Shown: positions 19,096 through 21,999, numbered from the stretch's first letter. The stretch: DNA of 32,000 nt from Candidatus Saccharimonadota bacterium (GCA_965231145.1 OZ246420.1:780001-812000); one strand, 5' to 3'. Program-made: numbers and translations. The notes: generated by a model from the sequence alone, not told the origin.

Positions 19096-19803
19096 ATGGA
19101 TACCATGCAGCAGCACATTACTTTTAAGGCGTGAAATGAGACATTGGCAGCGCTCATCTATAAGCAACATGAGGAAGATATTCCTACTGCCCTTTTTCTG
19201 CATGGTGCAAGTACGGCGATGAAAGATAGGATCAAGTATTTTGCTGAGGAGTTTGTCGAAAGAGATATGCCCCTTATGGCGATAGATTTTTCGGGACATG
19301 GTGAAAGCACAGGAAAACTCAATGAATCGAGCCTCCAGAAAAGAATCCATGAAGCGCATGCAGCCATGGAATTTTTGGATCCGGAGAAAAAGCTGACGAT
19401 TATTGGATCGAGCATGGGAGGACATATTGCCCTGGAGATGTTGAAGACGTGAAGAGTGGAAACACTTATCCTCTTTTGTCCTGCGGTCTATTCGGATGAA
19501 TCTATTCCTCTACAGTTTGATAGCTGATTTACTGAAGCCATCAGAAAAGAAAACAGCTGGGAAAGTTCATCACTTTTTGATGAGTTACAAAAATTCACCG
19601 GAAGACTCTTTATCATCATCTGAGACCAAGATAGCGTCATACCTCATGGAGTTCTTACGAAGCTTGTAGCTTCAGCGACTAAAGCCAAGCAAAAAGAACT
19701 TATCTTCGTGCCATGAGCATCGCACGCTATCCATAGTTATTTGGAAAGCCATCCGGAAGATTTTGCTCGCGTCAGAGAAAAAATATTTGCGCATATAGAT
19801 TAG
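19096..19803 (+). CDS. alpha/beta-fold hydrolase
   Basis: ATG 19096 to TAG 19801-19803 (235 aa) with several in-frame TGAs. It has the LFLHGAS oxyanion region, the nucleophile elbow GSSMGG and a C-terminal ..ASHAIH.. His. Confidence 0.7.
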
Positions 19804-19842
19804 TGTCATCATACACACATACTTTTATATTTACCTATCACC

Positions 19843-20037
19843 ATGCAAAAACTCAATTTCGAACAAGCATATCTTCGCCTCAAAGAGATTCATGAGATGT
19901 TAGAGACAAATGAACTTATGGATATTGAGAAAATCATTGCTCTCCAGAAGGAAGCGAAAGAGCTCTATGAACAATTGGATCATATGCTCAAAAAAGCAGA
20001 AATGATTGACGATGAAGAAAAGAAGGTAAAAAAATAG
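19843..20037 (+). CDS. xseB: exodeoxyribonuclease VII small subunit
   Basis: The 64-aa ORF has the pattern FEQAYLRLKEIHEMLE...L.....ALQKEAKELYEQLDHMLKKAE, typical of XseB. Confidence 0.7.
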   Translation: MQKLNFEQAYLRLKEIHEMLETNELMDIEKIIALQKEAKELYEQLDHMLKKAEMIDDEEKKVKK

Positions 20038-20039
20038 AG

Positions 20040-20059
20040 AGACGTCCCGCGGGACGTCT
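20040..20059. repeat. perfect 20-nt GC-rich palindrome (REP-like, R3), probable xseB terminator
   Basis: AGACGTCCCG|CGGGACGTCT lies immediately after the xseB TAG. A decayed half-copy (..GGCATGTCTC aatttacaaa) sits at about 20081-20105. Confidence 0.6.
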
Positions 20060-20124
20060 GAAGGTAAATTCATAAGAAATGGCGTCGCGGCATGTCTCAA
20101 TTTACAAAAATAAAAAACAAAAAA

Positions 20125-20709
20125 ATGATCAAACCAAGCAAATTTCGCGGCAAATATCGCATTGCGTCAGCGAGATTACAATGATACGATTATACAGCCG
20201 ATGGCACATATTTCATCACCATATGTGTCAGATGAACCGACGTTTTTCGTCCCCATTATTTTGGCAAAATTGTTGATGGAACGATGATGTTAAACGAATT
20301 GGGCAAAATAGCAGAAGACGAATTATTGCAAACGGAAGCCAAAAGACCATATGTTTCCATTCCATCGTATATGATTATGCCCGATCATGTGCATTTTATT
20401 TTGAATATCACATCAATGAACCCGGTAGAGACGCACCGTGGTGCGTCTCCCCAATGCGATAATGATAAATATGAAACGTTTTTCATAAATGAGAAGTGCC
20501 GCGGCACTTCTCTACAAATGCGTCCGGGTTCATTGTGATCCATCATTAATCATTTTAAATGATCGGTTTCGCGTTATGCACGTAAACACAATATCCCTTT
20601 CAAACGACAGCCAAATTATTATGAACATATAATCATGGATGATAAAACCCTGTTTAGAATTATGGAATATATTGAAAATAATCCACGCAATCGAAAAAAC
20701 GATTTGTAA
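20125..20709 (+). CDS. IS200/IS605-type Y1 HUH transposase-like protein (REP-associated tyrosine transposase, RAYT-like)
   Basis: ATG 20125 to TAA 20707-20709 (194 aa) with four in-frame TGAs. It has YRIASARLQGYDYTADGTYFITICV, the HUH motif MPDHVHFIL and the C-terminal NYYEHII catalytic-Tyr region. Confidence 0.8.
20425..20449 (+). repeat. REP-like GTAG + 10-bp hairpin inside the RAYT-like ORF (R4)
   Basis: GTAGAGACGCACC gt GGTGCGTCTC, translated as VETHRGAS. Confidence 0.7.
20491..20515 (-). repeat. REP-like GTAG + 22-nt perfect palindrome inside the RAYT-like ORF, in inverted orientation (R5)
   Basis: The + strand reads GAGAAGTGCCG|CGGCACTTCTC TAC. The minus strand reads GTAGAGAAGTGCCGCGGCACTTCTC. 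It is translated as EKCRGTSLQ. Confidence 0.7.
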
Positions 20710-20739
20710 TATGATGCTATTAATTGGTAATTGATTTCA

Positions 20740-21999
20740 ATGCATAAAATAAAACATCTCCAAAATCACGCATTCCGATGGATTATCATTGCGCTTGTTA
20801 GCGTCATGTTTTGCGTACTGTTAGGCGGCTATCGGAGAAACGTCCAAGCGACAAATGAAAGACTCACTCAGCGAACATGACCCATGAAAGAGCTCACCAA
20901 TTCACTCCTCACCCACTCCGGCAGCAGCGACAATCTGCTGCGCAGCAGTATTGCTTCCTACGAAAGCATGATCTCATGACTTGATATGACTCCAGTGGTG
21001 AGTAATGGTCTACATCAGTACGTAAGTAATCTCTATACTGTCGCAGGAGCATTTGAAGCTGCAAAAGCTGCTCTTCCTCAGACTAATGACTGGGAATATT
21101 TGTTTAACAGAGGTACAATTTCTCTTCTCGAGACAGTAACCTACATGTCCTGAGATATAATAAAGCTTTACTCTGGAAGACAAACCATCGCGGACGCAGT
21201 CCGCTATCTCTCGGGCGCCGTACTCAGCACGAGCGATGAGAAAAATATGTACATGAGCAAACACAATGTCAGTGTCGCCCTTGCAGCACAGATAGGAGTA
21301 GAAGTAAAGATCTGTACTGAGAATTATCGTTTCTTTGCCGATACGCGATGAGATATAGAAGACATATTGAGTGCGCTCCAAGAAAGTTACCAAGACCAGC
21401 TTACTCTGCTAAGTACTGAACAAAGTAATCAATGTATACGTGAATATAGAGCTCAGCTTTCAGGCTATGTGGCAACACTACCAGAGAAAATAGCACTGAG
21501 CATGACCATGAACATATGAGCTACAGAGAAGAAAAACAAGTACATGCTAGAGCCACTCCAATGTCCCATGAATATCAATATGTATGATGAGATTGTGTCG
21601 CTTCGTAGCTATCACGATGAATTACAAGTAGCAGCGGAAAAAGACGCAGTCGTGAGAACAATGATTATCAGTGGAAATATGATCGATCTCGTAGCGCTTT
21701 GTGAAAGTAGTAGCAGCGGAGAAAACAATCAAAGTAGTGTTGGAGATCTACTCTCTGCACTTACGGGTAGCCAGGAATTGCTTGAAGAAGGCGAGAACAT
21801 CGATACTACAAGTATGACAGGTTCATATGAGTTGCTCCCTGAAGATACACAGGAACTCGTCAACGACATCTATCAGAAAAATATCCAGTACATACAAACG
21901 ATGCAACAGACGCAGCAGGATAATAACTATCGTCCATTAAAACGTTTGCAGGAGCTCTTCAAAGAGTTCTACTGAGATACTCAACAATTTCTCAAGTAA
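20740..21999 (+). CDS. hypothetical membrane-anchored protein with a Gln/acidic-rich C-terminus
   Basis: ATG 20740 to TAA 21997-21999 (419 aa). Frame 1 is joined across several TGAs to ORF 21544-21975. It has an N-terminal TM helix (FRWIIIALVSVMFCVLLGGY). ORF 21010-21393 (-) is a shadow ORF. Confidence 0.6.

What the first reader, a model, noticed from the sequence alone, without database searches (positions are those of the whole stretch)
20125..20709. RAYT-like HUH transposase carrying two inverted GTAG-hairpin (REP-like) elements inside its own ORF
The 194-aa protein has the HUH motif (HVH) and the C-terminal Tyr region of IS200/IS605-type Y1 transposases and REP-associated tyrosine transposases.

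Between these motifs the DNA contains GTAGAGACGCACCgtGGTGCGTCTC (20425-20449, + orientation). Forty-one nt later it contains GAGAAGTGCCGCGGCACTTCTCTAC (20491-20515), which reads as GTAG + palindrome on the minus strand. GTAG followed by a GC-rich palindrome is the defining shape of REP elements recognised by RAYTs.

Here the two are translated as ..VETHRGASPQ.. and ..EKCRGTSLQ.. without breaking the frame. A third palindrome (20040-20059) and a decayed half-copy (about 20081-20105) lie just upstream of the gene.

Either the enzyme's cognate sites have invaded a permissive loop of its own gene, or the gene carries cis-acting structures for self-regulation or self-mobilisation.
Basis: partly seen in the sequence, partly recalled or inferred. 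Interest (0 to 1): 0.62.

Follow-up and report, generated by a model that had tools for sequence, protein, structure and literature searches.

The report
RAYT transposase gene carrying its hairpins
This is an intact REP-associated tyrosine transposase gene in a recoded SR1/Absconditabacteria genome, with two copies of its own kind of DNA hairpin read in frame inside a floppy surface loop; that layout was published in 2018 as the hallmark of this transposase subclass, so it is a real but ordinary example.

Summary
Window 20125-20709 is a 194-codon ORF, but it is open only if TGA is read as glycine (four in-frame TGA). It encodes a Y1/HUH transposase whose best match in sequence and in fold is E. 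coli TnpAREP (4ER8).

Between the HUH strand and helix alphaC lie two perfect GC-rich palindromes with outward-facing GTAG feet (20425-20449 and 20491-20515). They are translated in frame. Minimal homologues lack this segment, and the AlphaFold model gives it pLDDT below 50.

A second paralogue in the same genome carries an inverted pair of the genome's main REP type at the same position. In relatives, 16 of 21 RAYT genes hold hairpins in this linker.

This is in print. Quentin et al. 2018 (PMC6006769) describe in-frame REP insertions between HuH and Y as the unique feature of TnpAREP subclass 2.4, which equals RAYT group 4. This scan has also reported the same thing on other DNA (e1-1382538, e1-2841526, e1-3620255, e1-4547740).

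What is added here:
- It is an example in an Absconditabacteria genome.
- The whole 702-nt cassette is missing at the same site in two same-genus genomes.
- Both CGA codons of the gene sit at conserved Trp positions, which fits the published CGA-to-Trp reassignment.

Verdict: a new member of a known kind, of low interest.

The parts
20040..20059 (.). Upstream REP-like perfect palindrome AGACGTCCCGCGGGACGTCT (AGAC class). It lies two bases after the stop codon of the xseB-like gene and forms the left edge of the 702-nt cassette.
   Evidence: (hairpin in the -14.9 kcal/mol fold, z -4.0). The cassette is absent from the same site in same-genus genomes.
20081..20105 (.). Degenerate remnant of the same palindrome type (GGCGTCGCGGCATGTCTC).
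   Evidence: The pairing is only weak and imperfect, and the similarity was judged by eye.
20125..20709 (+). rayT/tnpAREP-like gene of 194 codons. Four TGA=Gly codons lie at 20182, 20233, 20536 and 20560. Two CGA codons (20605-20607 and 20692-20694) lie at conserved Trp positions.
   Evidence: Pfam Y1_Tnp scores 30.6 bits against a cut-off of 23. The only PDB sequence hit is 4ER8, E 7.6e-9. The top fold hit is also 4ER8, rmsd 2.5 A.
20386..20394 (+). HUH motif, H88-V89-H90, within PDHVH.
   Evidence: H88 and H90 are invariant in alignment A1.
20413..20526 (+). Hypervariable linker insertion (aa 97-134) between the HUH strand and helix alphaC.
   Evidence: The segment is absent from minimal homologues such as P0084, P0121, P0070 and P0105. 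pLDDT is below 50 for aa 102-111 and 116-129.
20425..20449 (+). REP 1: a GTAG foot plus a 10-bp stem (GAGACGCACC / GGTGCGTCTC) with loop GT. It is read as VETHRGASP.
   Evidence: It shares its 8 outer stem pairs with the copy at genome 127013. Its foot and stem base match the class-wide double-foot REP GTAGAGACG..CGTCTCTAC.
20470..20487 (.). Small AT-rich 7-bp hairpin, TATGAAACGTTTTTCATA, in the spacer between the two REPs.
   Evidence: Its significance was not tested.
20491..20515 (-). REP 2 in inverted orientation: a 22-nt perfect palindrome GAGAAGTGCCGCGGCACTTCTC followed by TAC. On the minus strand this is GTAG plus the palindrome. It is read as EKCRGTSLQ.
   Evidence: It differs from the copies at genome 458953 and 1000599 by one compensated base pair.
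20668..20685 (+). Y motif Y182-IENNP, holding the catalytic Tyr and N186. These align with Y115 and N119 of E. coli TnpAREP.
   Evidence: The motif definition is from PMC6006769, Table 1.

Best explanation
The gene is an intact member of the TnpAREP/RAYT subclass 2.4 (RAYT group 4). It is a single-domain HUH/Tyr enzyme that binds and cuts single-stranded DNA hairpins carrying a GTAG foot.

It sits in a small REPtron-like cassette of 702 nt, with REP-type palindromes upstream of the gene. The cassette lies between xseB and the next gene.

The surface loop between the HUH strand and helix alphaC tolerates almost any peptide. In this subclass, REP hairpins of the enzyme's own type accumulate in that loop as in-frame insertions. 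Here the loop holds an inverted REP pair with the feet facing outwards.

What is shown:
- the fold and the catalytic motifs;
- that the segment is an insertion, and that the model gives it low confidence (taken here as disordered);
- the hairpins and their relatives elsewhere in the genome;
- recurrence of the arrangement in a paralogue and in relatives.

What is inferred:
- that the hairpins were put there by the RAYT itself acting near its own gene on single-stranded DNA at replication;
- that only insertions keeping the frame in this loop survive selection;
- that the encoded peptides have no function of their own.
For: Protein family:
- Pfam Y1_Tnp scores above its cut-off.
- The only PDB sequence hit and the top fold hit are both 4ER8 TnpAREP.
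- 153 homologues were found, several of them named RayT by their sources.

Subclass 2.4 features compared with the gene:
- Length is 194 aa, equal to the subclass median.
- The HuH motif is present.
- YIENNP fits the YIxNNP motif.
- WQ is present if CGA=Trp.
- There is no C-terminal tail.
- There is a variable beta3-alphaC insertion.

Hairpins:
- They are real and beyond chance.
- Six AGAC-class copies exist in the genome.
- The paralogue at genome 991536-992114 has an inverted pair of the roughly 21-copy GGAC REP class in the same linker.
- In relatives, 16 of 21 RAYT ORFs have perfect hairpins of 8 bp or more in the linker: 7.3 per kb against 0.53 per kb in the rest of the ORF.
- The double-foot REP GTAGAGACG..CGTCTCTAC occurs in 7 of 8 RAYT-positive and 0 of 8 RAYT-negative genomes from other families of the class.

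In print: Quentin et al. 2018 state that REPs are inserted in frame within subclass 2.4 tnpAREP genes, generally between HuH and Y.
Against: - No biochemical activity has been shown for any subclass 2.4 enzyme in what I read, and none is shown here.
- The gene's own hairpin class has only about 6 copies, 3 of them at this locus. A 'family' dispersed by this enzyme is therefore thin.
- There is no REP downstream of the gene, so the REPtron layout is one-sided.
- The HUH motif begins with D rather than the N of the subclass signature.
- The NCBIfam RAYT model scores 43 bits, below its cut-off of 80.
- The two internal REPs are only about 72% alike. Each lacks one foot of a double-foot REP, so their history (inverted dimer or two decayed double-foot units) is open.
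Confidence: 0.85

Rival explanations
1. The internal hairpins are kept because they act in cis. They might be binding sites through which the RAYT represses or cleaves its own gene or transcript, as autoregulation. Or they might be mRNA structures that throttle translation of a potentially harmful nuclease.
For: - Both internal palindromes are perfect (10 and 11 bp), while the remnant upstream of the gene has decayed.
- REP 2 differs from its relatives elsewhere in the genome by a compensated pair.
- The arrangement recurs in a paralogue and in most relatives.
- Di Nocera et al. suggest that REP hairpins could down-regulate RAYT expression.
Against: - Several homologues have no linker insert at all and keep every catalytic motif, so the hairpins are not needed by the family.
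- The number, type and position of hairpins within the linker vary freely between close relatives.
- Perfect stems and compensated changes are equally expected from recent insertion of active REP copies.
Confidence: 0.08
2. The palindromes were not inserted as REP units. They arose locally in a slippery linker by template switching or tandem-repeat expansion, and only resemble REPs.
For: The linkers of near-identical homologues differ by tandem copies of short units. P0026, P0029 and P0030 have 1, 2 and 4 copies of a 16-aa unit, and P0078 and P0085 differ in the same way. Quentin et al. also note short repeats in this region.
Against: - The same foot and stem occur outside the gene. Genome 127013 shares 8 stem pairs with REP 1, and 458953 and 1000599 match REP 2 except for one compensated pair.
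- GTAG is specifically enriched next to hairpins genome-wide.
- The paralogue's internal hairpins belong to the dispersed GGAC REP family of about 21 copies.
Confidence: 0.05
3. The gene is a decaying relic that is no longer functional, and the hairpins are debris in a dying ORF.
For: - The gene is absent from two same-genus genomes.
- It sits on a long branch in the tree.
- Its hairpin class is low in copy number.
Against: - The 194-codon frame is intact.
- H88, H90, Y182 and N186 are all kept.
- TGA lies at conserved Gly positions and CGA at conserved Trp positions, so the gene is written in the host's code.
- The core of the model is confident, with pLDDT above 90 over most of it.
Confidence: 0.04

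Closest known systems
TnpAREP (TnpAY1) subclass 2.4 of Quentin, Siguier, Chandler and Fichant 2018 (BMC Genomics 19:475, PMC6006769), equal to RAYT group 4 of Bertels et al. 2017 (PMC5581495)
   Same: - Length 194 aa, the subclass median.
- HuH motif, YIxNNP Y motif, and WQ if CGA=Trp.
- No C-terminal tail domain.
- Variable insertion between beta3 and alphaC.
- REPs with GT[AG]G feet inserted in frame between HuH and Y.
- Low copy number per genome (2 copies at 38% identity here; 1.5 copies at 40% in the paper).
- Low-copy associated repeats (Bertels et al. report about 14 occurrences of flanking 16-mers for group 4).
   Different: - The host is an Absconditabacteria genome. The paper lists Cyanobacteria, Bacteroidetes and 'various phyla'.
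- The gene is written with TGA=Gly and CGA at Trp positions.
- The HUH motif starts with D, not N.
- The insert is an inverted pair of single-foot REPs rather than one double-foot REP.
- REP-like palindromes flank the gene on the upstream side only.
E. coli TnpAREP (YafM), PDB 4ER8, subclass 2.2
   Same: - Same fold: top Foldseek hit, rmsd 2.5 A over 171 columns.
- The HUH motif, the catalytic Tyr and the Asn four residues later all align.
- The known substrate is a GTAG-footed REP hairpin in ssDNA.
   Different: - Only 15% identity.
- E. coli TnpAREP has no beta3-alphaC insertion and no REP inside its gene.
- It has a C-terminal extension.
- Its REP family has hundreds of extragenic copies.
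REPIN-RAYT systems of Pseudomonas (Bertels and Rainey 2011, PMC3116915, as cited in PMC6006769)
   Same: - Each RAYT paralogue goes with its own hairpin class.
- REPs occur as inverted doublets.
   Different: - The Pseudomonas RAYTs belong to another subclass (2.5, group 3).
- Their REPINs are extragenic and number in the hundreds.
- Here the inverted doublet lies inside the transposase ORF, and its two arms are only about 72% alike.
Intragenic REPs and Rickettsia palindromic elements (Di Nocera et al. 2013, PMC3733652; Ogata et al. 2000 as cited there)
   Same: - Short palindromic repeats are read in frame inside functional genes, in tolerant parts of the protein.
- The same genome also has REP copies inside other long ORFs.
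   Different: Here the host gene is the presumed mobilising enzyme itself, and the site is a fixed hot spot shared by a whole subclass.

Membership tests
TnpAREP subclass 2.4 / RAYT group 4 | HuH motif (subclass signature NH[IFV]H) | tested here: met
   The gene has PDHVH, and H88 and H90 are invariant in A1. The residue before the first His is D, not N. Many of the closest homologues also have DH[VI]H, so the HuH motif is met but the subclass-specific N is not.
TnpAREP subclass 2.4 / RAYT group 4 | Y motif YIxNNP, with the catalytic Tyr and an Asn four residues later | tested here: met
   The gene has Y182-I-E-N-N186-P. Y182, I183 and N186 are invariant in A1. They align with Y115 and N119 of 4ER8. 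The motif is taken from Table 1 of PMC6006769.
TnpAREP subclass 2.4 / RAYT group 4 | Conserved WQ motif | tested here: met
   Table 25 reads RQ here, but the codon is CGA. At this position, 10 of 12 copies from code-25 family genomes have CGA, one has CGG and one has TGG. All 9 copies from other families have TGG. CGA/CGG-to-Trp is the published prediction for Absconditabacteria. With CGA=W the Pfam score rises from 25.3 to 30.6 bits and the NCBIfam RAYT score from 37 to 43.4 bits. The feature is met on condition that this reassignment holds.
TnpAREP subclass 2.4 / RAYT group 4 | Insertion between beta3 (HuH strand) and alphaC, variable in length and sequence | tested here: met
   aa 97-134 are absent from minimal homologues, and the region varies from 0 to more than 80 aa across A1 and the hit list. 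The model puts it between strand 88-95 and helix 137-154, with pLDDT below 50.
TnpAREP subclass 2.4 / RAYT group 4 | REP sequences inserted in frame within the tnpAREP gene, between HuH and Y | tested here: met
   Two GTAG-footed perfect palindromes at 20425-20449 and 20491-20515 are read in frame.
TnpAREP subclass 2.4 / RAYT group 4 | No conserved C-terminal tail domain; full length about 194 aa | tested here: met
   The protein is 194 aa and ends 7 residues after NNP.
TnpAREP subclass 2.4 / RAYT group 4 | REPs flanking the gene (REPtron arrangement) | tested here: inconclusive
   One perfect palindrome and one decayed palindrome of the same class lie upstream (20040-20059 and about 20081-20105). 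No palindrome lies in the 30 nt between the stop codon and the next gene.
TnpAREP subclass 2.4 / RAYT group 4 | 8-aa insertion at the end of alphaB | not tested
   I had no subclass profile or reference alignment to place this feature.
TnpAREP / RAYT in general | Binding, cleavage and rejoining of ssDNA REP hairpins at the GTAG foot | not testable with these tools
   This needs purified protein and oligonucleotide assays.
TnpAREP / RAYT in general | TnpAREP fold | tested here: met
   The AlphaFold model has mean pLDDT 81 and pTM 0.75. The top PDB match is 4ER8, E 6e-8, rmsd 2.5 A, ranking ahead of the IS200/IS605 TnpA structures.
NCBIfam NF047646 REP_Tyr_transpos (equivalog) | Score at or above the curated cut-off of 80 bits | tested here: not met
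   The score is 37 bits under table 25 and 43.4 bits with CGA=W. It is the best-scoring NCBIfam family but falls below the cut-off.
IS200/IS605 transposase TnpA (subclass 1.1) | Score above the IS200 model cut-off; several near-identical copies per genome, as in an insertion sequence | tested here: not met
   NF033573 scores 19.8 bits against a cut-off of 55. The genome has only two copies, at 38% identity.
Classical REP / REPIN families | GTAG foot directly next to a GC-rich palindrome | tested here: met
Classical REP / REPIN families | High copy number (over 100 per genome), mostly extragenic | tested here: not met
   The AGAC class has about 6 copies and the GGAC class about 21 copies in 1.1 Mb. 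Several copies lie inside long ORFs.

The most novel reading that the evidence does not exclude
The inverted REP pair inside the linker is not passive cargo but a working part of the system. One possibility is that the RAYT gene serves as the protected master copy, or 'safe harbour', from which its REP family is reseeded. Another is that RAYT cleavage at the two outward-facing GTAG feet gives programmed variation or self-limitation of its own gene. Either would explain why a whole subclass keeps hairpins at this one spot.
Probability: 0.08. Interest if true: 0.55.

Novelty: new member of a known kind. Interest (0 to 1): 0.2.

Why it matters
It matters little in itself. The trait is the published hallmark of RAYT subclass 2.4, and this scan has met it several times.

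Its modest value has three parts.
- It places the subclass and its in-gene REPs in the ultra-small, host-dependent Absconditabacteria. The gene there is fully written in the host's unusual code, so it is a long-term resident and not a recent import.
- The gene gives clean single-gene support for the predicted CGA-to-Trp reassignment. Annotators using table 25 will otherwise misread the WQ motif as broken.
- The empty site in same-genus genomes shows that the whole small cassette is gained or lost as a unit.

Tried and rejected
- I looked for close orthologues to test whether the ORF and hairpins are intact in related strains. The only near-identical protein (P0002) is the same gene read with TGA=W. 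Its metagenome contig is 100% identical to the window over 6,618 nt, so there is no strain variation to compare.
- The two same-genus genomes lack the gene altogether.
I therefore could not look for reads with or without the insert, or for transcripts.
- I considered recent horizontal transfer from other families of the class, because the best protein matches (40-44% identity) come from them and REP 1 has their double-foot stem base. The tree places the gene with its own family's RAYTs (96/99 support), and the gene uses TGA=Gly and CGA, so I rejected recent transfer.
- The Rfam scan of 19500-21200 found nothing meaningful.
- The promoter and terminator scan gave only consensus-level matches. 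The 20040-20059 hairpin scores as terminator-like only on the minus strand.
- I rejected an IS200/IS605 insertion sequence: the score is below the model cut-off and there are no near-identical copies.

Full report
**1. What is in the sequence**

The stretch 20125-20709 is broken by four TGA codons under the standard bacterial code. Read with table 25 (TGA=Gly) it is one 194-codon ORF. The whole window behaves the same way. Long ORFs appear only when TGA is sense. The genome is a 1.107-Mb single contig with 39% G+C. Earlier notes of this scan call it SR1/Absconditabacteria.

The four TGA codons fall where homologues have Gly, for example LQ-G-YDY and GSL-G-SII.

- GTAG + AGACGCACC-gt-GGTGCGTCT + C lies at 20425-20449.
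- The 22-nt perfect palindrome GAGAAGTGCCGCGGCACTTCTC + TAC lies at 20491-20515.
- They are 41 nt apart, and both are in frame (V101ETHRGASPQ and E123KCRGTSLQ).
- The feet face outwards, so the two form an inverted pair.
- A further 20-nt palindrome of the same type lies at 20040-20059, two bases after the stop codon of the xseB-like gene.
- A decayed relative follows at about 20081-20105.

**2. Is it more than chance?**

As single-stranded DNA the 114-nt linker folds at -22.8 kcal/mol. Shuffles average -10.8 +/- 2.4, which gives z = -4.95, and 0 of 200 shuffles fold as well.

Across the genome there are 18 sites where GTAG is followed directly by a perfect stem of 8 bp or more. Ten Markov-simulated genomes gave 0-3 such sites. 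Nine other tetramers used as the 'foot' gave 1-6.

**3. The protein**

- Pfam Y1_Tnp scores above its cut-off.
- The best NCBIfam family is REP-associated tyrosine transposase, although it scores below that model's cut-off.
- A profile of 37 homologues finds one PDB sequence only, E. coli TnpAREP 4ER8.
- The AlphaFold model has mean pLDDT 81 and pTM 0.75. Its top structural match is 4ER8, at rmsd 2.5 A over 171 columns, ahead of the IS200/IS605 TnpA structures.
- H88, H90, Y182 and N186 are invariant in the alignment.
- Y182 and N186 align with the catalytic Y115 and the metal ligand N119 of 4ER8 (the roles of these residues are from PMC6006769). The catalytic Tyr therefore lies in YIENNP, not in the NYYEH stretch.

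**4. The hairpin segment is an insertion in a disordered loop**

In alignment A1 the region between HxHxxx and SLGSII..FK ranges from nothing (P0084, P0121, P0070, P0105, P0114, P0119) to more than 80 residues. In this protein it is aa 97-134.

The model places it between strand 88-95 and helix 137-154. pLDDT is below 50 for aa 102-111 and 116-129, which are the two hairpin-encoded peptides. The core is mostly above 90.

**5. The same thing elsewhere**

*The paralogue.* The genome has a second paralogue at 38% identity, at genome 991536-992114 on the minus strand. Its linker carries an inverted pair of GGACGC...GCGTCC hairpins at the same position, and a third copy forms its C-terminal end.

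*The two hairpin classes.* The GGAC class is the genome's main REP family. It has about 21 copies, most with TTGTAG feet, some inside other long ORFs. The class found in the gene under study (AGAC/AGAA stems) has about 6 copies:
- three at this locus;
- 127013, which shares the same 8 outer stem pairs as REP 1;
- 458953 and 1000599, which are identical to REP 2 except for one compensated pair.

Each paralogue therefore goes with its own hairpin class.

*Relatives.* In 40 related genomes, 15 have RAYT homologues. Of 21 distinct RAYT ORFs in the fetched loci, 16 have perfect hairpins of 8 bp or more in the linker. That is 7.3 per kb, against 0.53 per kb in the rest of the ORF.
- Copies from the same family (code 25) tend to show the inverted-pair form (L006, L030, L020).
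- Copies from other families of the class show a single 'double-foot' REP, GTAGAGACG...CGTCTCTAC, read as VET...SLQ.
- That double-foot REP is dispersed (2-14 copies) in 7 of the 8 RAYT-positive genomes from other families. It is found in none of the 8 RAYT-negative ones.

**6. It is in print**

Notes from earlier follow-ups of this scan pointed to Quentin, Siguier, Chandler and Fichant 2018, and I read the paper. [quoted passage not shown] Table 1 of that paper lists the following for subclass 2.4:
- median length 194 aa;
- motifs NH[IFV]H, WQ and YIxNNP;
- a variable beta3:alphaC insertion;
- no tail domain;
- 1.5 copies per genome at 40% identity;

The paper also notes that a double-foot REP could arise from an inverted REP dimer by central deletion. 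The present gene shows the undeleted dimer form.

Bertels et al. 2017 report only about 14 occurrences of the repeats flanking group 4 RAYTs. That fits the small families seen here.

**7. The WQ motif and the code**

Table 25 reads RQ where the subclass has WQ, but the codon is CGA. At that position, 10 of 12 copies from code-25 family genomes have CGA, one has CGG and one has TGG. All 9 copies from other families have TGG.

The gene's only other CGA (aa 190) aligns with the conserved Trp of NPxxW.

Shulgina and Eddy 2021 predicted that Absconditabacteria read CGA and CGG as Trp.

This genome has a tRNA(UCG) and one tRNA(CCG) that share A1:U72 and G73 with its tRNA-Trp(CCA). These are the identity features that paper used. 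With CGA=W the family scores rise.

**8. Context and history**

In two same-genus genomes the xseB-like gene is followed after 21 nt and 40 nt by the orthologue of the downstream gene. Here the gap is 702 nt and holds the palindromes and the RAYT gene. The cassette has therefore been gained or lost as a unit, although the direction was not determined.

A tree of the core domain puts the gene with the RAYTs of its own family (96/99 support), on a long branch. Together with its TGA and CGA usage, this argues against recent import.

**9. Mechanism**

Shown: the fold, the catalytic residues, the insertion, the low model confidence over the insert, the hairpins and their relatives, and the recurrence of the arrangement.

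Inferred, from what is established for E. coli TnpAREP and IS200/IS605 enzymes (cited):
- the enzyme recognises GTAG-footed hairpins in ssDNA;
- it acts preferentially near its own gene;
- only frame-preserving insertions in the tolerant loop survive.

A regulatory or 'master copy' role for the in-gene hairpins is not excluded, but nothing here requires it. Homologues without any insert keep all the motifs.

**10. Verdict**

The phenomenon is already described. This is a new member of a known kind, in a new host lineage and genetic code.

Noticed in passing
window 20605-20607 and 20692-20694; loci L006, L009-L012, L020, L022, L024, L025, L030: Both CGA codons of the gene lie at near-invariant Trp positions. 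Across RAYT copies from code-25 family genomes, the WQ Trp position is CGA in 10 copies, CGG in 1 and TGG in 1. In 9 copies from other families it is always TGG. This fits the published CGA/CGG-to-Trp reassignment of Absconditabacteria (PMC8629427). Table 25 therefore mistranslates the motif as RQ.
   Followed up: yes
G000:C1:380013-380085 and 1091292-1091364 (outside the window): tRNA(UCG) and one of three tRNA(CCG) genes share the A1:U72 pair and the G73 discriminator with tRNA-Trp(CCA). They resemble it more than they resemble the Arg tRNAs. The other two tRNA(CCG) genes look different.
   Followed up: partly
G000:C1:991536-992114, minus strand (locus L020): This is a second RAYT paralogue, at 38% identity. 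It has three GGAC-class REPs in frame: an inverted pair in the linker and one forming the C-terminal end. Their feet are GTGG, GTAC and GTAC rather than the GTAG of most dispersed copies.
   Followed up: partly
window 20038-20739 compared with L033 (G001) and L032 (G002): The site is empty in two same-genus genomes. There xseB is followed after 21 nt or 40 nt by the orthologue of the downstream 422-aa gene. Here the gap is 702 nt and holds the palindromes plus the RAYT gene.
   Followed up: yes
G000:C1:458946-458979 and 1000592-1000625 (outside the window): Two 34-nt perfect palindromes, CA[AT]GAAGAGACGTGCCGCGGCACGTCTCTTC[TA]TG, have GAAG/CTTC where a double-foot REP would have GTAG/CTAC. The core differs from REP 2 of the gene by one compensated base pair. 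The flanks of the two copies are unrelated.
   Followed up: partly
genomes G026, G033-G036, G038, G039: The double-foot REP GTAGAGACG..CGTCTCTAC (2-14 copies) is found in 7 of 8 RAYT-positive genomes and 0 of 8 RAYT-negative genomes from other families of the class. It is found in none of 25 genomes of the window's own family.
   Followed up: partly
proteins P0026, P0029, P0030; P0078, P0085; P0005, P0007: Near-identical RAYT homologues differ only in the number of tandem copies of short units in the linker, for example 1, 2 or 4 copies of a 16-aa unit. The linker therefore also grows by local repeat expansion.
   Followed up: no
G000:C1:320063-320136, 507278-507351, 982028-982103, 257546-257656: GGAC-class REPs often occur as same-orientation doublets of two different hairpins about 54 nt apart. 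Most carry a TTGTAG foot, which links them to the RAYT system.
   Followed up: partly
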